DNA from: Naegleria gruberi
Lineage: Eukaryota
Assembly: GCA_000004985.1 (NCBI GenBank)
Contig: GG738870.1
DNA: 64,000 nt
Reading direction: 5' to 3' (one strand)
Shown here: piece after piece, positions 1,450 through 28,644 of the stretch
Layout of the letters: every line of letters begins with the position of its first letter
How positions within the stretch are numbered: the stretch's first letter is position 1
Made by a program: the position numbers and the translations under genes
Notes under the pieces: model-generated
Seen by the model: only the letters and a program-made list of their open reading frames with translations
The model's database searches: none
What the model was told of the DNA's origin: nothing

Positions 1450-2448
1450 TTATTGTGTAAATATTTGCTTGTAATTTCTCTTGAGCTTATCCAAAAACGA
1501 AGAACTTTCTTTACCACATGGATTGACCGAGATACAAAATTCATTCAGTTTTTGTTCTGATGTTTCAATATTTCGTTTTGTGTCCATAATAAGGACATCA
1601 CCATTTTGAAGTACATCTCCGATTCGCTTTGAAATATCCAAAGTAGAAATTCCATTATTAATTTTGTAAATGGAGAGTCTATCTTCTGGGGCAGTATTGA
1701 GATTATTATTTACATTCTTTATCTTTGCATAATCTGCCAAAATATCTAGTGTTTTACCAATTGACCACATTTTGCTTAATTTCATTGGTATTCCATTTGG
1801 TTGATTAAGTGTTAAATATACAGTTGTTTTGATGGAATCTGCATCATCTAGTGTCTTATTTTTCAATGGTACAATATATGTAGAAGGAAGAGAGGCATTA
1901 CTTGAGGACGTATTACCTGTCGATGAAGATTTGACAGCTGGGATATTACTGAGCTTTGAATTATTTACATTGGTTCTTTCTTGATGAAGTTTCTTTAAAA
2001 GAGCATTTGGTTCCTTTTTCTTTTCAATTTTGATTTCCTTATGTTGATGTTTGTGAGTACATTGATGATCATCAGCATGTCTATGATCTGAACAGAATGA
2101 TTTCAAACATAAGTTACAATTGACCATTTGATCCTCTTTACAATCATGAAATGCACAACAATTCTTTACACTCTCAACTTTACAACCATTTCTAATATGT
2201 CTCTCAATGACAATATTATTATCCTCATGTGGGAATCTCTTTGGCACAAGAGCCTGACACAAAGGACAGGTAGGAATGTGAGACTTTTTCAATTCCTCAT
2301 CAATATTATAAACACACTGATGGGAGGCACATTCACGATGTTCCGAACAAAAATGTTTCTTACAATGAGTACAAGTGAAGGGTAAAAAGTCTTTTTGTCT
2401 ACAAGTCTCCACACAACAATGTTTGCCAAGGTCAAAGAATTCAGTCAT
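1450..2448 (-). CDS. ZFAND1: AN1-type zinc finger protein, ZFAND1/Cuz1-like (two AN1 fingers plus a C-terminal ubiquitin-like domain)
   Basis: Two C-x2-C-x9-12-C-x2-C-x4-C-x2-H-x5-H-x-C AN1 motifs (CCVETCRQKDFLPFTCTHCKKHFCSEHRECASHQC and CCAFHDCKEDQMVNCNLCLKSFCSDHRHADDHQC). The C-terminal about 90 aa is ubiquitin-like. Confidence 0.65.
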   Translation of the reverse strand: MTEFFDLGKHCCVETCRQKDFLPFTCTHCKKHFCSEHRECASHQCVYNIDEELKKSHIPTCPLCQALVPKRFPHEDNNIVIERHIRNGCKVESVKNCCAFHDCKEDQMVNCNLCLKSFCSDHRHADDHQCTHKHQHKEIKIEKKKEPNALLKKLHQERTNVNNSKLSNIPAVKSSSTGNTSSSNASLPSTYIVPLKNKTLDDADSIKTTVYLTLNQPNGIPMKLSKMWSIGKTLDILADYAKIKNVNNNLNTAPEDRLSIYKINNGISTLDISKRIGDVLQNGDVLIMDTKRNIETSEQKLNEFCISVNPCGKESSSFLDKLKRNYKQIFTQ

Positions 2449-2880
2449 TTCTTTTTGTTTTTAAATTCCTGAAAAACAACGCTGTTTGATGTTCTATTAA
2501 TACATAATTAATTTTCTCAACGTTTCCTTGTTGCCTTACAAGTTGAACAGGTAACAAACATTTAAAAATAGAATTTGTGTTCCACTTCCGAAACAACAAA
2601 AAATGATTTGTGCTAGCGCTATTACACTTCCGAAGTCAATAATTTGTGCGTGCTTGAGTTTTGCATTTGGATTGAATGAGGAGGAATTGAGAATTGTGGA
2701 TGGCTTTCATATCGTCTATTGTTTACACTGAATTGTTCAATAAACATTTAAGATATTATTCCTTAAAAGGTTCAAAAAAACATTTATATTTGAAGAATTG
2801 ACTTTTTCAATTCTTTCCAATTTCTTATAAATTTACCTTCTCTGCTTCTTTCATAATCCAATAACAAATTTGAAACAAAA

Positions 2881-3274
2881 ATGAAAAGAACTTGTTTGGT
2901 AGCGCTCTTCTTCTTCCTTGGCTTATTATCTTTTGCATTGGGACAATACAATAATGCATATGGAGGTGCCTATGGATACAATGGAGGTGCTGGTAAGTGC
3001 TTTTAAGATTTTCGATTAATTGATTCAAAATCATGTAATTTTAATGAGATTAGGTTCAAACTATGGAGTGGCAGGTGGAAATTACAATCAATATGCACAA
3101 AATACTCAAGCTTATTCTAATCAAATAAGTGCAATTTCCTATAATCCATATAGTAGTTATGGTTCTTATTATAATGGACCATACAGTTATGGTAATAATT
3201 ATGGTTCTGCCTATTCAATGCCTTATTATGGAGTCCCATACTATGGAGGATACTATCCATATAGATATTGGTAA
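2881..3274 (+). CDS. small secreted Gly/Tyr/Asn-rich low-complexity protein; exons 2881..2992 and 3054..3274
   Basis: The ATG is followed by a hydrophobic signal peptide (MKRTCLVALFFFLGLLSFALG). GTAAGT donor at 2993, YAG acceptor at 3051-3053, phase 1. The frame continues as GSNYGVAGGNYNQY...YYPYRYW. Confidence 0.5.
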
Positions 3275-3372
3275 ATAATTCGTGATTTGAATAAATGTTG
3301 TGTGTGAATATTTTGTAAACGATTAAATTCTCAAAAAAAATGCTCAACAAGTAAAGAATAACCAATCGGATC

Positions 3373-4580: not shown

Positions 4581-4651
4581 AGGGAGATAGTTCAGTGGTA
4601 GAACATGGGATTGTGGTTCCTAAGATCAGGGTTCGATTCCCTGTCTTCCTA
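4581..4651 (+). tRNA. tRNA-His (anticodon GTG)
   Basis: Cloverleaf by hand: acceptor AGGGAGA/TCTTCCT, D-stem GTTC/GAAC, anticodon stem TGGGA/TCCTA, loop TTGTGGT (GTG at 4613-4615), T-arm CAGGG-TTCGATT-CCCTG. Followed by a T5 run. Confidence 0.85.
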
Positions 4652-4655
4652 CACC

Positions 4656-9404: not shown

Positions 9405-9408
9405 GGTG

Positions 9409-9479
9409 TAGGAAGACAGGGAATCGAACCCTGATCTTAGGAACCACAATCCCATGTTCTACCACTGAACTATCTCCCT
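9409..9479 (-). tRNA. tRNA-His (GTG), second copy, inverted relative to 4581..4651
   Basis: Reverse complement is identical over 71 nt to the copy at 4581..4651. An A6 run at 9399-9404 is a T6 terminator on the minus strand. Confidence 0.85.
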
Positions 9480-9640: not shown

Positions 9641-12600
9641 ATGCCCTATAACACTAGACATCATTCTACTCCACGTGGATCATATTCCAAATTTTTTGAT
9701 GATGCTGAAGAGGAAGAAGAAGAAGAAGAAGAAGCCCAAACTAGAAAGGTAGGTTTTATACAATTACTCTTTGACCATATATCAAACATATCAATAGCCT
9801 CCGACAAGGAGAACAAGTACAAGGTCAAGTCATAGAAATTCATCAAGTGATAGTGAGGAAATAGATGATCTGACATCTAAACGATCAACAAGACAAAATA
9901 AACCAAGACATAACAGAATAGAACAGGAAGAACCTGAGGATGAGTATTCCGAAAGTATTGCTTCTTCAAGACCAAAAAGAACACCAAAAAAAACAACATA
10001 TACTGATTTTTATACGGAAGACTATGATGAAAATTCGGATAAGGAAACTCCAAAATCATCAAGGAAAAAAGCACCAGCAAGAAGAACAACTGGCACTAAA
10101 GTACAAATTAAAAGGGAATTAATTGAAGCACATACTAGTGAAATCCCGAATCCAACAATTGTACAACAGCCATCCGAACAAGTTGAAACATCAGTAATAA
10201 CTTCTGGTGTTATTGATGACGTATTTAAAGATATTATTCCAAATAATCAACCTATCACTACTGAACAAAACAGTATACCAACTATGGAATTTCCAACTAG
10301 TACCGTACCACCAAGTAATATGGAATTTGATACATCACTCAACAGAAGCCAAAGTGCTATTTCAGAGCAAAGTGATGATCATAAAGGCAAAAAAAGAAAA
10401 AAGAATGAGGAGGATGAGGATTTCGTTATGGATGATGATGAACCAGAGGAGGAAGAAGCCATTGAAGTATCTGATGAAGCTTTATCAGATGCTATTTCTT
10501 CCAATGATGAATTAGAAATGAGACCAACAAGAAGTAGAAAAAAGCCAAAATTTATTGTGGATGATGATGAGGAATTGGAAGAAACAGAAACACCAAAAGA
10601 GAATGGAAAGGATATTAAAAAGAGATTAAGGCCAAGAACCCAAGCTCAACTTAATCCTTATAGCCACCCTATTCCAAATATTGACAATATTGAAATTCCA
10701 TCAAAGAGTACTATGATAAAGGAACAACAAGAACTCTTGGCACCTTTAGATTCCTTAACATTCCAATTTTCAGAGTCTGAATCAGAATCTGACAACGATG
10801 AAACAGGTTTGGTCAATCCAGCATTTGGTAAGAAAGGAGAATATGATCACATTAAGCCAATCAATATTGAACAACTTAAAAAGAAACCATCTGCTGATAT
10901 TGATCCAGTTTTTTCCAAACCTGTTGGATTTGACATGGTTGGTGGTCTTCATAAGCACATTAATGCATTGAAAGAAATGGTAGTATTACCCCTTTTATAT
11001 CCAGAAGTATTTAACAAATTTGATATTACTCCTCCAAGAGGTGTCATATTTTATGGTCCACCTGGTACGGTAAGTTTTGAAATCAGATATATTGTAATAT
11101 TAACAACTAATTTTAGGGTAAAACACTTGTTGCTAGAGCTCTTGCTAGCACCTGTGGTACTGGAACAGATGGAAACAAACCTATTGCCTTCTTTATGCGT
11201 AAAGGTGCTGATATCCTCAGTAAATGGGTTGGTGAAGCTGAAAAACAATTAAGACTTTTGTTTGATGAAGCAAAGAGACTTCAACCTTCCATTATTTTCT
11301 TTGATGAAATCGATGGTTTAGCACCAGTAAGATCATCAAAACAAGATTACATTCACAGCTCAATTGTATCAACTCTTCTTGCACTTATGGATGGTTTAGA
11401 TAGTAGAGGTCAAGTCGTGGTAATCGGAGCCACTAATAGAATAGACTCTATTGATCCAGCTCTTAGAAGACCAGGAAGATTTGACAGAGAGTTACTGTTT
11501 ACTCTTCCTTCTAAAAAAGCAAGAAAAGAAATTTTACAAATTCATACTAAGAATTGGGTACCTCAAATACCAGACGATCTGAAAAATTACATTTCTCTAA
11601 AATCTGTTGGATATTGTGGAGCTGACATTAAAGCACTCTGTGCTGAATCTGCTCTTAACGCTCTTAAAAGATCCTACCCACAAGTTTATACCAGTCAATC
11701 AAGATTAGTTCTTGAGCTTGATACAGTAGAAGTTACGAAGGTAGATTTCCTAAGAGCAATGAAATCAATAGTACCAGCATCACATAGAAATGCCGTAATT
11801 CATGCATCTCCTCTTCCAACTCAACTTGCTCCTTGCCTAAGCCAAAAATTAGAAATGGTTTTGAGAATATGTACAGATGCCTTCCCATTATGTATCAAAA
11901 CCCTAGAGGATAAAGTTGATAATGAAGACCTCGTAATAGAAACTGGTCCAATTTTGGATGATTTTGAAGGAGTAGATGAAAAAACATTTGAAAGCAATTC
12001 AAACGATTTCTTTATCAATCCTCCAACATTCAGACCTTGGGTCTTGATTCACGGACAAAAAGGAATGGGTCAAAATCTTATTGCAAGTGCAGTTTTGTAT
12101 AGTTTAGAAGAGTTCCCATTGTTCTCCCTAAGATATGAAAACCTTATTTCGAATACCTCATCTAGGAGCGAAATTGAAGCAATTATTAATATTATTGCCG
12201 ACTCTAGAAAGAATTCACCATCTATCCTTTGGCTTCCTAATCTTGATGAGTGGTTTGAAAAGAGTACAGATTTAATGAAATCTACTTTGATTTCACTCCT
12301 CAATGAGATACCCTCCTCTGTATATGTGTTCGTCCTTGCTACTTGTAACTACTCTTCTGAAGAATTACCACAAGAATTCACTGAATTATTTGCTGATTAT
12401 AGATTTGAAGTTAGCTCACCATCCAAAGACGAAAGAGTTGAAATGTTCAAACCTATTCTTGCTGATATTGTTAGATCTCCACTTAAGAAAACAAAGGTTA
12501 AGAAAGTTTATCCAACTTTACGTTTGGCTCCTCCAAAAGAACAAAAATCCTCAGAAATCGAGCCAAGCAAAGAAAAGAAATTGCAAAAGCAAGAGAAAGT

Positions 12601-22302: not shown

Positions 22303-23970
22303 TTAATGTTTATTTTCTAATTTTTGTTCCAAAGCTTGAATTCTTTCTAAACAAAATTCAATCAATTGGTCTTGTCTTTGAATGGTTTCTTCCAAGTTTT
22401 CAACTTTCTTATTTAAAATTTTGATAATTTCAGAGTTGACAGCTGTGGAATTCTCAACATTAATTGTTTGATCCAAATGTTTTCTTTCAATTGAGTGAAT
22501 AATATCTTCATCTTTAGCTAAATCTATTGGTGTTTTACCTTGAGCATTTTTCAATTGAATATTTGCACCAGCGTCAAGTAAAGCAGTTGTAATTTTCTTC
22601 TTGAAATCGAGTTCTTCATCTGTCGTTGCTGGTAGAACTGCAATATGAAGAGCAGAGTTGCCTTCTTTATCAACTGAGTTTACAAATTCAGGAAACATTT
22701 TGACAATGAAATAAACAACTGATTCTCTCATATTTTCCACAGCAACATGTAGAGGTTGTCTATTCTTATTATCAACATTCTTTTCATCAATATTAAGGGT
22801 AAACGGAGGATTTAACAACACTTTCAATAATTCTATCTGACCTCCAGCTGCAGCCCAATAAACACAAAATGATTTCTGAATATTAATTCCCTTTGATTGG
22901 AAAAAAGAAACCATTTCCAAGTCTCCCAGATATGATGCAAGCGCTATAACATTCATGTTAACCTTTCCAAATTTCTTATGTTTGAATTTTCTGTTCATAT
23001 CAGCATTCTTGTTGATTAAGAAAAGAATCATTTCCTTTTGCTTATTCATGACAGCCTCACATAATGGGGTCCAGTTCTGATAATGAGTGGAGAAAAAACA
23101 AGCATCAATGTAAGCTCCTTTTTGCAACAGATAATTTACAAGTACAGATGAACCGTGGCGAACAGCAAGGTGAAGGGAAGTCTTTATATTTGTTACTGAA
23201 ATCAAAGAAACCAAAATACTTACTTCATGTTCACTCAATGGTTGTAAAATATCCACACCTAACATGTTCAATAATTTTAGATAATCCAAATTACTATTAA
23301 TGGCACATTTTATGACACAATTAAGGATCGTTTCTTTAAATTCTTTTGCAACAATCCAAGCATCAAAATTATCTGCCTTCTCAATGGCATTAGCAACAAA
23401 GTATTCACTAATATAACTATCGTACAAAATATTAATACAATCATAAAGATTAGTGTGACAGACCATGTAGTGAAAAGGAGCTGTAATCATGTTATCGTTA
23501 ATGAACAATGAATAAAACATACTCAGTCCATTTGAATCTTTAAGCTTCAAAAACTCATCCAAAAATTTCAATTCTTTCATCTTCTCAAACACAAAGCTCC
23601 CGTTAGAAAAATCAAGGTCATTTGAACCTTTATGTTTGAAACCATATTGAATGGCCAAGTGAAGACAATTTCTATTCTCCAAACAAAGATGAGGTCCTTT
23701 TAATTGACTTGCATTGGAAGTTGTAAATAACAGTTTTAGTCTGGAAACGGAACCTTCTTTCAATGAAAACACAAACTCTTTCAATACATCCGATTCAAAA
23801 GTTTTTGATTTTATATCTTCCATTATGCTTGCATTCCTCTTTCTTCCTAATTCCTTTTCACTCTCGTCTTTGACATGAAGACCTTCATTCATCTTCATGA
23901 TTGTATTTTTCCTTAATACACTTTGCCTCCTTGAAGGAGAAATAGGAAGCTGAGGTAATGGCTTGCTCAT
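22303..23970 (-). CDS. ankyrin-repeat protein with a C-terminal coiled coil
   Basis: Multiple ANK units (LHLAVRHGSSVLVNYLLQKGAYID, PLHVAVENMRESVVYFIVKM..., SALHIAVLPATTDEELDFKKKITTALLDAGANIQLKNAQGKTPIDLA). Confidence 0.6.
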   Translation of the reverse strand: MSKPLPQLPISPSRRQSVLRKNTIMKMNEGLHVKDESEKELGRKRNASIMEDIKSKTFESDVLKEFVFSLKEGSVSRLKLLFTTSNASQLKGPHLCLENRNCLHLAIQYGFKHKGSNDLDFSNGSFVFEKMKELKFLDEFLKLKDSNGLSMFYSLFINDNMITAPFHYMVCHTNLYDCINILYDSYISEYFVANAIEKADNFDAWIVAKEFKETILNCVIKCAINSNLDYLKLLNMLGVDILQPLSEHEVSILVSLISVTNIKTSLHLAVRHGSSVLVNYLLQKGAYIDACFFSTHYQNWTPLCEAVMNKQKEMILFLINKNADMNRKFKHKKFGKVNMNVIALASYLGDLEMVSFFQSKGINIQKSFCVYWAAAGGQIELLKVLLNPPFTLNIDEKNVDNKNRQPLHVAVENMRESVVYFIVKMFPEFVNSVDKEGNSALHIAVLPATTDEELDFKKKITTALLDAGANIQLKNAQGKTPIDLAKDEDIIHSIERKHLDQTINVENSTAVNSEIIKILNKKVENLEETIQRQDQLIEFCLERIQALEQKLENKH

Positions 23971-23987
23971 TTTTTTAATAAGACACT

Positions 23988-24164
23988 ATGCTACTGGGAT
24001 GTGTTATCATTACAGCAATATTAATAAAAATGAATAGAGGATGTATGGATGTTAACAGTTTAGTAGTTGGAGGAGTACAGGATGTAAAAGACAATGTGGT
24101 CGGAGGATTCCACACTTTGAATAAGGCTACATCAATTTTGAAGAGAACACTTATCACCTGTTGA
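23988..24164 (+). CDS. short paralog (58 aa) of the GGVQDVK-repeat small-protein gene at 28243..28644
   Basis: MLLGCVIITAILIKMNRG...VVGGVQDVKDNVVGGFHTLNKATSILKR, roughly 75% nt identity to 28350..28560 (hand alignment, not computed). Hydrophobic N-terminus. Possibly a truncated or pseudogenised copy. Confidence 0.3.
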   Translation: MLLGCVIITAILIKMNRGCMDVNSLVVGGVQDVKDNVVGGFHTLNKATSILKRTLITC

Positions 24165-24584: not shown

Positions 24585-25868
24585 ATGAAAGTTTCAAATT
24601 TATTATTCATTTGTCTATTCCTATTCACTTTTGCTTACAAGTTGACTGTTGCCTCTAGCACTTCCAACATGCTACAACCAGTCAATTTATTTCAGAAGAG
24701 AACATCTCAAGCAGTGTGCACATGTCCTAGATGTCCAGACAAAATTAACATCAACAATTTCTTGTTCTCAACTGAGGTGAATTGTCCCACCAAGTGTCCC
24801 ACAGGCTATTACGTCAATGGAATGGATCTCTTGATTTCACCATTTAATGACTACCATACCTACATTATTGAAACTACATCCACTGACACTTCAAACAAAA
24901 TTAATGACTTGTCAAAAGATCAAACCAGATACAATCTTGGAGATTGTTTCAGTGCCTCTACTTCCTTAAATCTTGATACCACTGATTACACTACCAAGAT
25001 TACATGTAAGAATGCCATTACTCAATGCTCAGTTCAAGTGAAAAATGTTTGTTTTTGCTCCAAATCCCCTTCAAAATTGGTTATTATTGCTCCTTCTCTT
25101 GTTGTGACTGGATCTAAATACACACCTGAAGTAAGAATTGTTGACAATGATGGAAATATAGTTCCAAGAAACTATCTCATTGAATTCATTTCACCTGGTC
25201 AATCCTATACTTCTATGGCATCAAATGGTATCATGAAAGTTAATGAACTTATTGCCCCAAGCTCTGGTACTGTTACATTAAGAGCTTCTATCAGTTCTCT
25301 TTCAGGTTCTGCTCCTTCATTGACTTCTGCTGAGTTTACTGTCACTGTCACTCAATCCTTATTCACATGTTATGGTGCTTCACCTTCCAACAGTTCTGTT
25401 TGTAGTGGTAAAGGAACATGTACTGCTCAAGATGTTTGCTCATGTTTCACAGGATACAGTGGTAGTAAATGTGAAACATTCTCCTCAACCACTCAAGTTT
25501 CCAGCATTAAACTCTCAGTTCCCTCCACTGTGAATAGTGGTTCTCAATTTACTGCAACTGTTTCAATGTTGGATTCAAGTGGAAGTACCATGAAATCAGG
25601 TTCAGGAACTATCACTTTGGATATTGTTGGTGCATCTTCTGATGTTACAATGGTTGGTGATAAGTCCAAAGTGGCAGGTGAAGGTGTTGCTTCATTCTCT
25701 GTTCAATTGTCAACATTGACATCAACTTCGATCTCTCTAAAGGCGAACTATCAAACACTTTCAGATACCAAATCAGTTAATGTGGATATATCCAGGACAT
25801 CTCAATGTGCTGCCATTTGGAGTTATCTTTTCACAATAACCTTTTTTGTAATTTTATTTATTATCTAA
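24585..25868 (+). CDS. secreted, probably GPI-anchored, Cys-rich glycoprotein with an EGF-like module and Ser/Thr-rich repeats
   Basis: Signal peptide MKVSNLLFICLFLFTFAYKL. EGF-like CSGKGTCTAQDVCSCFTGYSGSKCE. S/T-rich segments. C-terminal hydrophobic tail AAIWSYLFTITFFVILFII typical of a GPI signal. Confidence 0.6.
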   Translation: MKVSNLLFICLFLFTFAYKLTVASSTSNMLQPVNLFQKRTSQAVCTCPRCPDKININNFLFSTEVNCPTKCPTGYYVNGMDLLISPFNDYHTYIIETTSTDTSNKINDLSKDQTRYNLGDCFSASTSLNLDTTDYTTKITCKNAITQCSVQVKNVCFCSKSPSKLVIIAPSLVVTGSKYTPEVRIVDNDGNIVPRNYLIEFISPGQSYTSMASNGIMKVNELIAPSSGTVTLRASISSLSGSAPSLTSAEFTVTVTQSLFTCYGASPSNSSVCSGKGTCTAQDVCSCFTGYSGSKCETFSSTTQVSSIKLSVPSTVNSGSQFTATVSMLDSSGSTMKSGSGTITLDIVGASSDVTMVGDKSKVAGEGVASFSVQLSTLTSTSISLKANYQTLSDTKSVNVDISRTSQCAAIWSYLFTITFFVILFII

Positions 25869-25922
25869 TAATAATAATATTGCATTAAATAAATTTAATA
25901 TTACAAAATTTAATTATTATAA

Positions 25923-26266
25923 ATGGATCAAGACTTCATTGACTCAAGTTATTTCTCAAATGATCTGACAAAGTCTAATAACATCAAGTCATGTATTAGA
26001 ATAGTGTTCAAGTAGGTAATACCAGTAGTATTTTACGTGAATTTTATCATGAGCTTCCAAAGAAACATTCTAAGGGAGGTCAATCTCTTGAAAGATTTGC
26101 TAGAAATAGAGAAATTGCCAAGAATGAATATCTAAAGATTATTGCAGAGAAGGCAAATTCTTTATTCGTATCGCCAACTTTGAATGCTCCAACTGTAGAT
26201 GCTATTATTCTTGCTGGATGTGCTGAATTGAAGAATGAATTACTTTCTCTCAAATCTGATTGTTTG
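25923..26266 (+). pseudogene. ETF1: eRF1 (peptide chain release factor subunit 1) relic retaining NIKS-like and GGQ-motif segments
   Basis: 25923.. encodes ...LTKSNNIKSCIRI (eRF1 TASNIKSRVNRL). In the +1 frame from about 25998, VQVGNTSSILREFYHELPKKHSKGGQSLERFARNREIAKNEYLKIIAEKANSLFVS...AIILAGCAELKNELLS matches eRF1 domain 2 ([47 protein letters not shown]...LVLAGSADFKTELS). Domain 1 is mostly missing, the two segments are in different frames, and there is no room for domain 3 before the next gene. Confidence 0.5.
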
Positions 26267-26302
26267 GTAATAGTAAAATAGTAAAAAGTAACTAAGAGTG
26301 AT

Positions 26303-27398
26303 TTAGGTCAATTTGAACATGCCTTGAATTGCCTTGGCAGAGTAAGCTTCTTCCAAACTCTTCTTTTCTTCATCGGTTAATTGAATTTCCAATGCTTGCA
26401 CATTGAGTTCAATATTTACAGCTTTAGTGGCGCCAACAATTGGACAAGCAACACCTGGCTTGGAAAGCAACCAAGCAAGTGCAATTTGAGCAGGTGGTAC
26501 ATTTCTCTTCTTTGCAATTTCTGAAACTCTTCTCAATGTTTCTTTATCACCCTCTGTTAAATTTTCCTTAAATATATTTTGGAAATAATCAGAGGTAGCT
26601 CTCTTGGAATCAATTGCTTGTTCAGCATTGACAAATTCATGAGCACGAGCGAGCATTCCATTGGAAAGAGGTCCCCATGGAGTGAGAGAAACATGTTGGT
26701 CAACACATAATGGATTCATTTCTCTTTCTTCTTCTCTATAGATGAGATTGTGGAGATTTTGCATGGAAATGAATTTGGTCAATCCCTTCTTCTCAGCATA
26801 GTGTTGAGCTTTAGCAAATTGCCAAGCAAACATTGTGGAAGCACCAATGTATCTGACCTTTCCAGACTTGACTAAATCATGGAGTGTTTCCATAGTTTCT
26901 TCAATTGGAGTATTTTCATCCCAACGATGGATAATGTACAAATCAATGTCTATTCAATCAATCATTATTAATCAAATGAAATATTTCAGTAAACTTACAA
27001 TCGAGACCTAATCTTTGCAATGAATCTTCAACTGCATGCATAATGTGCTTTCTGGAGAGACCAAAAGTGTTTGGTTTCAACTTGCTAAAGTCCATTACCA
27101 TAGATTGTTCACCACTTCTGTCCACTGGAGCACAAACTTTGGTAGCCACAACAATTTCCTCTCTTGAAATGTTGAATTTCTTAATGAAATTTCCTAAAAT
27201 TCTTTCACTTTCTCCATTACTATAAACATTGGCAGTATCGAAAAAGTTAATTCCCAAATCCCATGCCTTCTTCAAAATGATCATTGATTCCTCTTCATTC
27301 AATACCCAAGGCATCCACTTGGAAGATCCAAAACTCATACAACCCAAACAAAGTTGAGAAACCTTCAAACCACTATTACCCAAATTGACGTATTTCAT
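26303..27398 (-). CDS. aldo-keto reductase family oxidoreductase; exons 27398..26999 and 26949..26303
   Basis: The N-terminal ORF (MKYVNLGNSGLKVSQLCLGCMSFG...SLQRLGLD) and C-terminal ORF (IDLYIIHRWDENT...) are joined by a 49-nt intron (donor GTAAGT is the revcomp of ACTTAC at 26993-26998). The junction restores the AKR consensus LGLDYIDLYIIH. Confidence 0.8.
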
Positions 27399-27513
27399 TG
27401 TTTCTTTAATATTTTTTCTCTATCAAACTATGAAGCTTATTCAATAAGAATTGAATTTGTTTTTTTTGTTTTTGAAATTGTTCTTCTTTATTGCCAGCGA
27501 ATTTAAGTAGGAA

Positions 27514-27613
27514 AATTTGTGCTCATATTTTCGCGAGCAGATTAATGTTTTGATGGTTTTGGATGGATATGATGATTTAAAATTGTGCTCACATTTTCAC
27601 GAGCAGATTAATG
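27514..27613. repeat. two 33-bp direct repeats (27514..27546 and 27581..27613, 30/33 identical) with a TTTTCGCGAG / TTTTCACGAG core
   Basis: ATTTGTGCTCATATTTTCGCGAGCAGATTAATG versus AATTGTGCTCACATTTTCACGAGCAGATTAATG, about 150 bp upstream of tRNA-Met. Confidence 0.7.
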
Positions 27614-27760: not shown

Positions 27761-27833
27761 GGGGTCATGGCGCAGTCGGTAGCGCGTAGGTCTCATAATC
27801 CTAAGGTCGTGAGTTCGATCCTCACTGACCCCA
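27761..27833 (+). tRNA. tRNA-Met elongator (anticodon CAT)
   Basis: Acceptor GGGGTCA/TGACCCC, D-arm GCGC-AGTCGGTA-GCGC, anticodon loop CTCATAA (CAT at 27794-27796), T-arm GTGAG-TTCGATC-CTCAC. G1-C72 and a close match to the eukaryotic elongator Met sequence. T5 at 27836-27840. Confidence 0.85.
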
Positions 27834-28242: not shown

Positions 28243-28644
28243 TTGAGAATGAAAGTTGGTGCCCTGTTACAAGGTGCTCAGTCGTCTTTTAACAGACATT
28301 ATCAATGGCTTGTTCTGTTTTTTAACGATAAAACATCTATGCTTCTTGGACGTGTTATTATTACAGCAACATTAATAAAAATGAATAGAGGATTTATAAC
28401 GGAAGGTGTACAGGATGTTAAAGGTTTAGTGGTCGGTGGTGTTCAGGATGTTAAAGGCTTAGTAGTTGGAGGAGTACAGGATGTAAAGGACAAGGTGGTT
28501 GGAGGATTCCACACTTTGAATAAGGCTACATCAATATTGAGGAGAAAAATTATTAGTGATGTTGGAAATGCTAAGGAACTAAATAAGAAGGTGATCAGTT
28601 ATTTTACAGGAAAAGAGAGTAGGTTGATGAAGAATATTATTTAA
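28243..28644 (+). CDS. small protein with three tandem 11-aa repeats (GGVQDVKGLVV); paralog of 23988..24164
   Basis: 133-aa ORF. ...EGVQDVKGLVVGGVQDVKGLVVGGVQDVKDKVVGGFHTLNKATSILRRK. Hydrophobic segment LLGRVIITATLIKM. No known family recognised. Confidence 0.45.
   Translation: MRMKVGALLQGAQSSFNRHYQWLVLFFNDKTSMLLGRVIITATLIKMNRGFITEGVQDVKGLVVGGVQDVKGLVVGGVQDVKDKVVGGFHTLNKATSILRRKIISDVGNAKELNKKVISYFTGKESRLMKNII

What the first reader, a model, noticed from the sequence alone, without database searches (positions are those of the whole stretch)
25923..26266. Relic of translation termination factor eRF1 retaining both functional motifs (NIKS-like and GGQ)
A 340-bp stretch encodes, in two adjacent but mutually frameshifted segments, an NIKS-loop-like peptide (TKSNNIKSCIR) and a well-conserved eRF1 domain-2 segment including LPKKHSKGGQSLERFAR. 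Domains 1 and 3 are missing, and the aldo-keto reductase gene starts 37 bp downstream on the other strand, so a full gene cannot fit. This is either a decaying duplicate of an essential single-copy gene or an exon-shuffled fragment. Either way it marks the island as a recent insertion or duplication site. A retained GGQ fragment could in principle be expressed as a dominant-negative mini-protein.
Basis: partly seen in the sequence, partly recalled or inferred. Interest (0 to 1): 0.55.

Follow-up and report, generated by a model that had tools for sequence, protein, structure and literature searches.

The report
Dead fragment of Naegleria's frameshifted eRF1
This is a real but dead, internally deleted copy of the amoeba Naegleria's translation-termination factor gene (eRF1), and its two out-of-frame halves trace back to a conserved in-frame stop codon in the intact gene that apparently has to be bypassed by a +1 ribosomal frameshift.

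Summary
Window 25929-26267 (+) holds two pieces of an eRF1 gene. One is a NIKS-loop piece (TKSNNIKSC, 25962-25997). The other is an 84-codon domain-2 piece with GGQ (26015-26266; Pfam eRF1_2 E=2.5e-17).

The window is Naegleria gruberi-like DNA. The fragment copies that species' own eRF1 gene (P0273), which lies on another scaffold and is 94% identical in protein over the 84 codons. It is a pseudogene fragment:
- it is truncated at both ends;
- it lacks 351 nt (117 codons, including YxCxxxF) between the two pieces;
- it carries further small deletions;
- it has no ATG in the GGQ frame;
- it evolves without visible constraint.

A sister copy in another assembly (L001, 95% identical in DNA, same 5' flank) is damaged differently.

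The unexpected part lies outside the window. In five intact relatives (Naegleria lovaniensis, Willaertia magna and three unnamed contigs), ORF1 ends three codons after NIKS at an invariant NUU UAA C. Homology to eRF1 then continues in the +1 frame. This resembles bacterial prfB (CUU UGA C) and Megavirus mg280 (CUU UAA C). L001 keeps ATT TAA C; the window copy has lost it through a 5-nt deletion.

The relic itself is ordinary. The frameshift site in its source gene is not ordinary, and I found no description of it.

The parts
24585..25868 (+). Upstream neighbour: a 427-aa ORF with a hydrophobic N-terminus, a Cys-rich EGF-like stretch and a hydrophobic C-terminus. Its stop is at 25866-25868, which leaves no room for a 5' eRF1 exon.
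   Evidence: ORF and translation; no Pfam family
25869..25928 (+). AT-rich spacer that is not derived from eRF1. From 25879 it is shared, nearly identical, with the sister copy L001. It contains AATAAA at 25888-25893.
   Evidence: L001 nt 2-397 = window 25879-26267, 95.2%
25929..25961 (+). Piece A1. These are source-gene codons K-T-S-L-T-Q-V-I-S-Q-(M), read in the window frame that gives WIKTSLTQVISQM. One G is missing after 25961 (source and L001: CAAATGGATC; window: CAAAT-GATC). The first 13 codons of the 30-aa ATG ORF are therefore out of the source frame.
25962..25997 (+). Piece A2, the NIKS loop in the source frame: D-L-T-K-S-N-N-I-K-S-C-I, with NIKS codons at 25980-25991. A 6-nt deletion relative to the intact gene (QRY to L) is shared with L001. 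ATT at 25995-25997 is the former P-site codon of the shift site.
   Evidence: L003 reads RYTKSNNIKSCL*, L001 reads DLTKSNNINSCI*
25998..26014 (+). Remnant of the first +1-frame codons, (N-R)-N-S-V-Q-V. Immediately before it, 5 nt (TAACA) are missing relative to L001 and all intact genes. That deletion removes the UAA of the shift site and changes the frame offset from +1 to +2.
   Evidence: L001 ATTTAACAGGAATAGTG versus window ATT-----AGAATAGTG
26015..26266 (+). Piece B: 84 codons of eRF1 domain 2, GNTSS...LPKKHSKGGQS...SDCL, with GGQ codons at 26075-26083. It is joined to piece A by an in-frame 351-nt deletion (L003 nt 197-547, 117 codons including YxCxxxF) that L001 shares. It is 94% identical in protein to N. 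gruberi P0273 residues 94-177 and 85% identical in DNA to L003 nt 548-800.
26267..26302 (.). End of the relic and a 35-nt spacer. Homology to eRF1 stops at 26267, whereas L001 continues for about 52 more nt (DYRLRT*IVTVVDVACGG).
26303..27398 (-). Downstream neighbour: an aldo-keto reductase gene of 349 aa that converges on the relic. Its stop codon is at 26303-26305 and it has a 49-nt GTAAGT..TAG intron at 26950-26998. Any 3' UTR longer than 35 nt would be antisense to the relic.

Best explanation
The 339-bp stretch at 25929-26267 is a non-functional, rearranged partial copy (a pseudogene fragment) of Naegleria's own eRF1 gene. It sits in the 434-bp gap between two convergent genes.

What was copied and what was lost:
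- The copy began inside domain 1, about 16 codons before NIKS.
- It lost 117 codons between the NIKS region and the domain-2 core.
- It ends inside domain 2.

Why the two pieces are in different frames: the intact gene has ORF1 ending three codons after NIKS at NUU UAA C, and the protein continues in the +1 frame. The most likely mechanism is a programmed +1 ribosomal frameshift. Peptidyl-tRNA on CUU or AUU waits at a weak UAA-C stop, re-pairs on UUU, and AAC is read next. This could let the level of release factor control its own synthesis, as in bacterial RF2.

What happened afterwards: the relic inherited this site, and the sister copy L001 still has ATT TAA C. In the window lineage a 5-nt deletion destroyed it, a 1-nt deletion broke the NIKS frame, and the 3' end was cut back further.

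Shown here: homology, source gene, lesions, relaxed constraint, and the frame switch conserved in five taxa.
Inferred: that the ribosome frameshifts there, that this is autoregulatory, and that the relic is not expressed as a protein.
For: Organism: the MCM3 ORF in the window is 99% identical to N. gruberi P0002.

Source gene: P0273, named eRF1 of N. gruberi, is 94% identical over 84 aa with E=2e-45. It is the only eRF1-like hit in the window.

Both pieces map to one gene: window 25929-26021 matches L003 nt 99-203, and window 26015-26267 matches L003 nt 548-800.

Sister copy: L001 is 95.2% identical over 396 nt, including the 5' flank. It shares the 351-nt and 6-nt deletions but not the 1-nt and 5-nt deletions or the 3' end. 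It has its own extra G in the GGQ codons and its own TGA.

Relaxed constraint: window versus L001 differ at 3 synonymous and 4 non-synonymous codons. The window copy has 5 amino-acid changes from P0273 and L001 has 8, of which 4 are shared. By contrast the intact L003 gene differs from P0273 at only 3 of 84 residues. Of the 31 codons that differ between the window copy and L003, 23 are synonymous. No Met occurs in the GGQ frame.

Frame switch in intact genes...NIKS-x-[L/I]-TAA-C, then N-R-x-S-V in the +1 frame, in L002, L003, L004, L005 and L012. The joined proteins (476-493 aa) align colinearly with canonical eRF1 across the site. Upstream of the site, frame 0 gives 66 synonymous and 75 non-synonymous codon differences, against 17 and 125 in the +1 frame. 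Downstream, the +1 frame gives 74 and 114, against 6 and 180 (with stops) in frame 0.

Precedent: the same heptamer works as a +1 shift site in giant-virus eRF1-type genes (PMC3521657).
Against: I could not obtain the DNA of the N. gruberi source gene; the look-up failed. A true dN/dS and an age are therefore missing, and the source site in N. gruberi (CTT or ATT) is inferred from relatives and from L001.

The organism behind L001 (assembly GCA_006365155.1) is unknown, and some of its 'lesions', such as the G run, could be sequencing errors.

There are no expression data. Transcription of the relic, in sense as read-through or in antisense within the reductase 3' UTR, is not excluded.

For the source gene, frameshifting is inferred from comparative sequence only. 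No conserved 3' RNA structure was found. I could not confirm that L003 is a transcript.
Confidence: 0.9

Rival explanations
1. The fragment is expressed as a small GGQ-containing or NIKS-containing protein that interferes with termination.
For: A 93-codon stretch free of stops (26000-26278) in 31% G+C DNA, with GGQ intact, and a 30-codon ATG ORF carrying NIKS just upstream.
Against: There is no ATG anywhere in the GGQ frame, and the upstream ORF is two frames away after the 5-nt deletion. At 94% identity to the source protein, the copy is young enough that an open frame is expected by descent. Window versus L001 shows 3 synonymous and 4 non-synonymous codon changes. L001 breaks the GGQ codons with an extra G and has NINS instead of NIKS. 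The piece lacks the rest of domain 2 and all of domain 3, so it has no known way to be delivered to the ribosome.
Confidence: 0.03
2. The relic acts as RNA. Because the convergent reductase gene ends 35 nt away, its 3' UTR may run antisense through the relic. That could form duplexes with eRF1 mRNA (about 250 nt of near-identity) or feed small-RNA pathways, as reported for some pseudogenes.
For: The geometry fits: the reductase stop is at 26303 on the minus strand and the relic ends at 26267. An AATAAA lies on the minus strand inside the relic, at about 26161-26166 (read from the sequence).
Against: This is purely positional, with no expression or small-RNA data. L001 has a different 3' neighbourhood, so the arrangement is not conserved. 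Sequence decay is neutral-like.
Confidence: 0.05
3. It is part of a live, split or multi-exon eRF1 gene whose other exons lie elsewhere.
For: Both functional motifs are present, and the stretch is flanked by AT-rich sequence that could be mistaken for introns.
Against: The neighbours close the space on both sides: the stop of a same-strand gene at 25868 and the stop of a convergent gene at 26303. tblastn of P0273 finds no other piece in the 64 kb. The intact gene is read without introns across this region in N. lovaniensis. The 1-nt and 5-nt deletions cannot be spliced away. An intact gene is recorded on a different contig.
Confidence: 0.01
4. For the source gene, the in-frame UAA is not bypassed by ribosomal frameshifting. 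Either it lies in an intron, or one T is removed in the RNA, or the gene makes two separate polypeptides.
For: The public W. magna model removes the stop with a 58-nt GT..AG 'intron'. The public N. lovaniensis annotation lists two separate genes.
Against: That 'intron' would delete the NIKS loop, yet those codons are under protein-level constraint in frame 0 right up to the stop (66 synonymous to 75 non-synonymous, against 17 to 125 in the +1 frame). Its donor, GTCAAG, is unlike the GTAAGT of the one clear intron seen here. Homology to eRF1 is colinear across the junction with no residue missing, which a split protein does not explain. A run of three T is short for transcriptional slippage (established knowledge).
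Confidence: 0.12

Closest known systems
Partial (truncated, internally deleted) pseudogene copies of housekeeping genes
   Same: There is a functional source gene elsewhere in the genome. The copy is truncated at both ends, has frame-breaking indels, shows neutral-like substitutions, has no start codon, and lies between other genes.
   Different: I cannot tell whether it arose by DNA duplication or through an RNA copy. The source region has no introns, and neither a poly(A) tract nor target-site duplications were found. It also carries the trace of a recoding site.
Eukaryotic release factor eRF1 (Pfam eRF1_1, eRF1_2, eRF1_3; for example human ETF1, PDB 1DT9)
   Same: The relic's NIKS loop and GGQ core are homologous to eRF1. 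Its source protein has NIKS, YxCxxxF, GGQ, a GIGxILKF motif and an acidic C-terminus.
   Different: The relic has only about 111 of roughly 480 codons. The source protein is a divergent eRF1: 38-41% identical to canonical eRF1s, with an insertion of about 40 aa in domain 1 and HSKGGQSRERFARNRE instead of [14 protein letters not shown]. Its gene needs a frame change.
Bacterial prfB (RF2) programmed +1 frameshift at CUU UGA C
   Same: In the source gene, a release-factor gene is interrupted early by an in-frame stop that the factor itself would read. The stop is preceded by CUU and followed by C, and the product continues in the +1 frame. The autoregulatory logic would be the same.
   Different: The protein family is unrelated (eRF1/aRF1 versus RF1/RF2). 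The stop is UAA rather than UGA. No Shine-Dalgarno-like stimulator can apply in a eukaryote. One relative, and the relic copy L001, use AUU in place of CUU. Autoregulation is untested here.
Mimivirus R726 and Megavirus mg280 eRF1-type release factor genes (Jeudy et al. 2012, PMC3521657)
   Same: These are eRF1-type genes with a +1 shift at CUU UAG C (Mimivirus) and CUU UAA C (Megavirus). The latter is the very heptamer seen in Naegleria and Willaertia. In R726, frameshifting was shown experimentally in E. coli.
   Different: The viral genes also need a UGA readthrough upstream. Their proteins are very divergent and form their own branch. The Naegleria gene is cellular, lies among cellular genes, and has a single recoding event. 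Giant-virus eRF1s that I retrieved from IMG/VR are canonical, unshifted, and no closer to the Naegleria gene (33-38% identity). That paper states that such autoregulation is absent from eukaryotic homologues.
Plant eRF1 autoregulation by stop-codon readthrough and nonsense-mediated decay (PMC5397192, seen as title and abstract only)
   Same: A eukaryotic eRF1 gene whose expression senses termination efficiency.
   Different: The plant system uses readthrough and mRNA decay. It has neither an internal stop nor a frame change.

Membership tests
eRF1 (functional class-I release factor) | NIKS loop of domain 1 | tested here: met
   TKSNNIKSC at 25968-25994 is identical to the intact L003 gene. Only about 27 codons of domain 1 remain.
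eRF1 (functional class-I release factor) | YxCxxxF motif and the rest of domain 1 | tested here: not met
   These lie inside the 351-nt deletion (L003 nt 197-547), and the 5' part is absent.
eRF1 (functional class-I release factor) | GGQ loop in domain 2 | tested here: met
   GGA GGT CAA at 26075-26083; Pfam eRF1_2 E=2.5e-17 on profile positions 19-93 of 133.
eRF1 (functional class-I release factor) | Domain 3 (binds eRF3) | tested here: not met
   Homology stops at 26267, and no eRF1_3 hit occurs anywhere in the window.
eRF1 (functional class-I release factor) | One translatable reading frame with a start codon | tested here: not met
   Three frames are used. There is no ATG in the GGQ frame, and there are 1-nt and 5-nt deletions.
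Pseudogene fragment | Intact source gene elsewhere in the same species | tested here: met
   P0273 of N. gruberi, 371-aa model, is recorded on an 850-kb contig, whereas the MCM3 protein matching the window is recorded on a 418-kb contig. The window comes from a slightly different strain or haplotype (MCM3 98.9% identical), so presence in the very same genome is inferred.
Pseudogene fragment | Disabling lesions | tested here: met
   Truncation at the 5' and 3' ends; deletions of 351, 6, 5 and 1 nt.
Pseudogene fragment | Relaxed selective constraint | tested here: met
   Window versus L001 shows 3 synonymous and 4 non-synonymous codon differences. The two copies have 5 and 8 amino-acid changes from the source, against 3 between two functional orthologues. 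The numbers are small, and no formal dN/dS was possible without the source DNA.
Pseudogene fragment | No protein product | not testable with these tools
   Needs RNA-seq, ribosome profiling or proteomics.
RF2-type programmed +1 frameshift site (NUU stop C) | Shift heptamer present in the relic in the window | tested here: not met
   The window reads TGT ATT AGA; TAACA is deleted. The sister copy L001 keeps ATT TAA C.
RF2-type programmed +1 frameshift site (NUU stop C) | In the source gene: a conserved in-frame stop, with coding constraint switching from frame 0 to +1 exactly there | tested here: met
   Five taxa share an invariant TT TAA C. The ratios of synonymous to non-synonymous codon differences flip at the site.
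RF2-type programmed +1 frameshift site (NUU stop C) | Ribosomes actually shift, and the efficiency responds to release-factor level | not testable with these tools
   Needs reporter assays, a junction peptide, and eRF1 depletion or over-expression.

The most novel reading that the evidence does not exclude
The relic is a fossil of an undescribed recoding event. The eRF1 gene of Naegleria and Willaertia (vahlkampfiid amoebae) carries a conserved in-frame UAA three codons after the NIKS stop-codon-reading motif. It would be expressed only through a programmed +1 frameshift at [C/A]UU UAA C. That would be a cellular eukaryotic counterpart of the bacterial RF2 autoregulatory frameshift, which among eRF1-type genes is so far known only from Mimivirus and Megavirus. 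All public gene models of this gene are broken or patched at that point.
Probability: 0.6. Interest if true: 0.8.

Novelty: new member of a known kind. Interest (0 to 1): 0.5.

Why it matters
On its own, the relic is one more gene fragment. It shows that this convergent intergenic gap once took up a piece of a housekeeping gene and has been eroding since, differently in two lineages.

Its value is as a pointer. Explaining why its two halves are out of frame led to the intact gene, which appears to need a +1 ribosomal frameshift at a stop codon read by the very factor it encodes.

If confirmed, two things would follow. The RF2-style feedback loop would have arisen independently, or been exchanged with giant viruses, in a cellular eukaryote. 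And it would provide a simple natural eukaryotic +1 shift site (a heptamer only, with no conserved RNA structure) for studying the competition between termination and frameshifting.

It also flags wrong eRF1 gene models in the N. gruberi, N. lovaniensis and W. magna annotations.

Tried and rejected
1. I first suspected the NNIKS peptide was a chance look-alike that really aligned to the DDSKFGF start of domain 2. DNA alignment to the intact genes refuted this: it is the true NIKS loop.

2. I considered tiny introns (Stentor-like 15-nt GTA..TAG) to join the frames. I rejected this. The organism is Naegleria, the one clear intron nearby is 49 nt with GTAAGT, and the offsets are explained by deletions relative to L001.

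3. A word-indexed protein search with the fragment gave only one hit, P0001. The full HMMER scan was needed to find the source family.

I therefore could not fetch N. gruberi reference DNA, the source locus, or any gene model over the relic.

5. I tested for a giant-virus origin of the Naegleria gene. IMG/VR eRF1 loci L006-L011 are canonical (NIKSRVNR), unshifted and only 33-38% identical, so this gives no support. Mimivirus-type genes were not retrieved by the patterns used.

6. I looked for a conserved RNA structure 3' of the shift site and found none.

7. I looked for target-site duplications or a poly(A) tract around the relic and found nothing convincing.

8. The tail of L001 beyond its eRF1 part matches neither the window nor the source genes.

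9. Literature searches for a Naegleria or heterolobosean eRF1 frameshift found nothing. Searches for the L001 assembly accession also found nothing.

10. I could not settle whether Naegleria also has a second, canonical eRF1. None appeared among the listed hits, but that candidate list is incomplete.

Full report
**1. What is in the sequence**

Window 25500-26700 was read directly and translated in three frames.
- The frame that starts with ATG at 25923 reads MDQDFIDSSYFSNDLTKSNNIKSCIRIVFK*.
- A second frame, open from 26000 to 26278, reads NSVQVGNTSSILREFYHELPKKHSKGGQSLERFARNREIAKNEYLKIIAEKANSLFVSPTLNAPTVDAIILAGCAELKNELLSLKSDCLVIVK**.

The second peptide matches Pfam eRF1_2 (E=2.5e-17, profile positions 19-93 of 133). 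It also matches solved eRF1 structures (E=3e-15 for 8ip8, residues about 162-238). The 30-residue NIKS peptide alone matches nothing in Pfam.

The stretch lies in a 434-bp gap. On one side is the stop of a same-strand 427-aa ORF (25868). On the other is the stop of a convergent aldo-keto reductase gene (26303-26305, minus strand). That gene has a 49-nt GTAAGT..TAG intron at 26950-26998.

**2. Organism**

The window has 31% G+C, densely packed eukaryotic genes, and three tRNA genes. Its MCM3 ORF is 99% identical to a Naegleria gruberi protein and 72% identical to that of N. lovaniensis. Exon-by-exon identity is 98.9-100%. The window is therefore N. gruberi, from a slightly different strain or haplotype than the public protein set.

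**3. Source of the fragment**

A word-indexed search with the fragment found only a 79-aa model, P0001, on a 541-bp contig of assembly GCA_006365155.1 (L001).

A full HMMER scan found a best hit at 75% identity, P0122. This is an N. lovaniensis protein named eRF1 in UniRef; another hit is from Willaertia magna.

Searching with P0122 returned the N. gruberi member P0273 ('eukaryotic peptide chain release factor subunit 1', 371-aa model, recorded on an 850-kb contig) and further relatives. P0273 residues 94-177 are 94% identical to window 26015-26266 (tblastn E=2e-45), and the window holds no other eRF1-like piece. The MCM3 protein matching the window is recorded on a 418-kb contig, so the intact gene lies on a different scaffold.

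**4. The NIKS piece is genuine**

I first suspected a chance resemblance. blastn of the region against genomic or contig DNA of relatives says otherwise.
- Window 25929-26021 aligns to L003 nt 99-203 and to N. lovaniensis L002 nt about 9831-9899. These are the stretches that encode ...TKSNNIKSC... and ...TKASNIKSS...
- Window 26015-26267 aligns to L003 nt 548-800 at 85% identity.

Both pieces therefore come from one gene, and the 351 nt between them (L003 nt 197-547, 117 codons including YxCxxxF) are missing. The deletion is in frame with respect to the downstream reading frame.

**5. The sister copy and the list of lesions**

L001 is 95.2% identical to window 25879-26267, including 50 nt of AT-rich flank that is not derived from eRF1. 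It is therefore the same insertion seen in another lineage.

Lesions shared by both copies:
- the 5' truncation at about 25928;
- a 6-nt deletion (QRY to L);
- the 351-nt deletion;
- four amino-acid changes.

Lesions in the window only:
- loss of one G after 25961, which puts KTSLTQVISQM in a third frame and makes the ATG at 25923 fortuitous;
- loss of TAACA after 25997;
- an eRF1 end at 26267.

Features of L001 only:
- NINS instead of NIKS;
- an extra G in the GGQ codons;
- four further amino-acid changes;
- about 52 nt more of the gene (DYRLRT*IVTVVDVACGG, with a TGA), followed by unrelated sequence.

In the 84 codons, window and L001 differ at 3 synonymous and 4 non-synonymous codons. By contrast, the intact L003 gene differs from P0273 at 3 residues. 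Of the 31 codons that differ between the window copy and L003, 23 are synonymous. The GGQ frame contains no methionine. No target-site duplication or poly(A) tract marks the ends.

Verdict on the relic: a dead, eroding gene fragment that is older than the split of the two lineages.

**6. Why the halves are out of frame**

In N. lovaniensis the public annotation has an 80-aa eRF1_1 'gene' just upstream of the 376-aa model. The same split appears in L005 and L012.

Reading the DNA gives the following. ORF1 runs ...GTSVITLLIS.KTS..QV..QM..R.TKA(S/N)NIKS(S/C)(L/I) and stops at TAA. eRF1 homology continues immediately in the +1 frame as NR.SV...RLK...KTP.NGLA.FCG.

The site is CTT TAA C in four loci, where CTTTAACAGG is invariant:
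- N. lovaniensis (L002);
- Logan contig L005, 86% identical to N. lovaniensis in protein;
- Logan contig L003, the closest to N. gruberi;
- Willaertia magna (L004).

It is ATT TAA C in an environmental relative (L012), and also in the relic copy L001.

Skipping one T gives ...NIKSSL-NRKSV..., colinear with canonical ...NIKSRV-NRLSV..., with no residue lost or gained. The joined proteins (476-493 aa) align end to end with canonical eRF1 and keep NIKS, YxCxxxF, GGQ and GIGxILKF.

A codon test across the five taxa shows the reading frame switching exactly there.

| Region | Frame read | Synonymous | Non-synonymous |
|---|---|---|---|
| Upstream of site | frame 0 | 66 | 75 |
| Upstream of site | +1 | 17 | 125 |
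| Downstream of site | +1 | 74 | 114 |
| Downstream of site | frame 0 (with stops) | 6 | 180 |

The W. magna public model bypasses the stop with a 58-nt GTCAAG..TCTAG 'intron' that would remove the NIKS loop. The constraint on those codons argues against that model. No conserved RNA structure follows the site.

**7. Comparison with what is known**

Bacterial prfB uses CUU UGA C for an autoregulatory +1 frameshift (established knowledge; also cited in PMC3521657).

Jeudy et al. 2012 (PMC3521657) showed that the eRF1-type genes of two giant viruses need a UGA readthrough plus a +1 shift. [quoted passage not shown] They note that UAA-C and UAG-C are among the best frameshift inducers in yeast, and they state that such autoregulation is absent from eukaryotic and archaeal homologues.

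The Naegleria and Willaertia site is the same heptamer as in Megavirus, but it sits in a cellular gene among cellular neighbours. Giant-virus eRF1 loci that I could retrieve from IMG/VR are canonical and unshifted, and they are no closer to the Naegleria gene (33-38% identity) than cellular eRF1s are (38-41%).

Five literature searches found no report of a Naegleria or heterolobosean eRF1 frameshift. The library covers open-access papers only.

**8. Mechanism proposed**

Shown:
- the relic derives from this gene;
- its piece A is in the source frame 0 and its piece B is in the source +1 frame (intact in L001);
- the window lineage then lost 5 nt at the site, giving the +2 offset seen today.

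Inferred:
- In the intact gene, a ribosome with peptidyl-tRNA(Leu or Ile) on NUU meets a poorly recognised UAA-C. If eRF1 is scarce, it slips to UUU and reads AAC, making full-length eRF1. If eRF1 is abundant, it terminates after 80 residues.

Not tested:
- whether this feedback exists;
- whether Naegleria has a second, canonical eRF1.

**9. Rivals for the relic**

- A dominant-negative mini-protein is unlikely. There is no start codon, decay looks neutral, and L001 breaks GGQ and NIKS.
- A hidden multi-exon gene is excluded by the neighbours, the indels and the intronless source.
- An RNA-level role, as antisense within the reductase 3' UTR, is possible in geometry only and is not conserved in L001.

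**10. Verdict**

The relic itself is an ordinary pseudogene fragment, a new member of a known kind. What deserves follow-up is the recoding site in its source gene, which the relic's odd frame structure exposed.

Noticed in passing
L002 nt 9667-11131 (site at 9904); L005 site 2904; L003 site 172; L004 site 3214; L012 site about 1974: The intact eRF1 genes of N. lovaniensis, W. magna and three unnamed relatives all have an in-frame TAA three codons after NIKS, within [C/A]TT TAA C. The protein continues in the +1 frame. This is an RF2-like and Megavirus-like +1 frameshift site in a cellular eukaryote, and I found no description of it.
   Followed up: partly
public protein models P0273 (N. gruberi), P0122 plus an 80-aa neighbour (N. 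lovaniensis, L002 9667-9909), P0276 (W. magna, L004 3001-4432): All public gene models of this eRF1 are wrong at the shift site. They either start at an internal Met, are split into two genes, or are patched with a 58-nt pseudo-intron that deletes the NIKS loop.
   Followed up: yes
L014 (W. magna JBEGDK010000067.1, gene 2001-3347) and protein P0277: W. magna carries at least one further copy that keeps CTTTAACAGG but lacks the GGQ stretch, plus a short third model. Partial or decayed duplicates of this gene therefore recur in the group.
   Followed up: partly
window 23957-24154 and 28304-28553: A direct repeat pair of about 200-250 nt, with segments 90-91% identical. The second copy has 33-nt tandem units expanded. 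The pair brackets the 4.2-kb block that holds the 427-aa ORF, the eRF1 relic, the reductase gene and tRNA-Met. There are only these two copies in the window. It might mark a segmental insertion or duplication.
   Followed up: partly
window 4581-4652 (+) and 9408-9479 (-); 27761-27833 (+): Two tRNA-His(GUG) genes with identical Rfam scores lie in opposite orientation about 4.8 kb apart. A tRNA-Met(CAU) gene lies 360 bp beyond the start of the reductase gene.
   Followed up: no
window 27513-27547 and 27579-27613: A 35-nt direct repeat (91% identical, 66 nt apart) lies just upstream of the tRNA-Met gene. Its meaning is unknown.
   Followed up: no
window 26161-26166 (minus strand) and 25888-25893 (plus strand): There are AATAAA hexamers 20 nt after the stop of the upstream gene and, on the minus strand, inside the relic about 140 nt after the reductase stop. 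If the latter is used, reductase mRNA would carry antisense eRF1 sequence.
   Followed up: no
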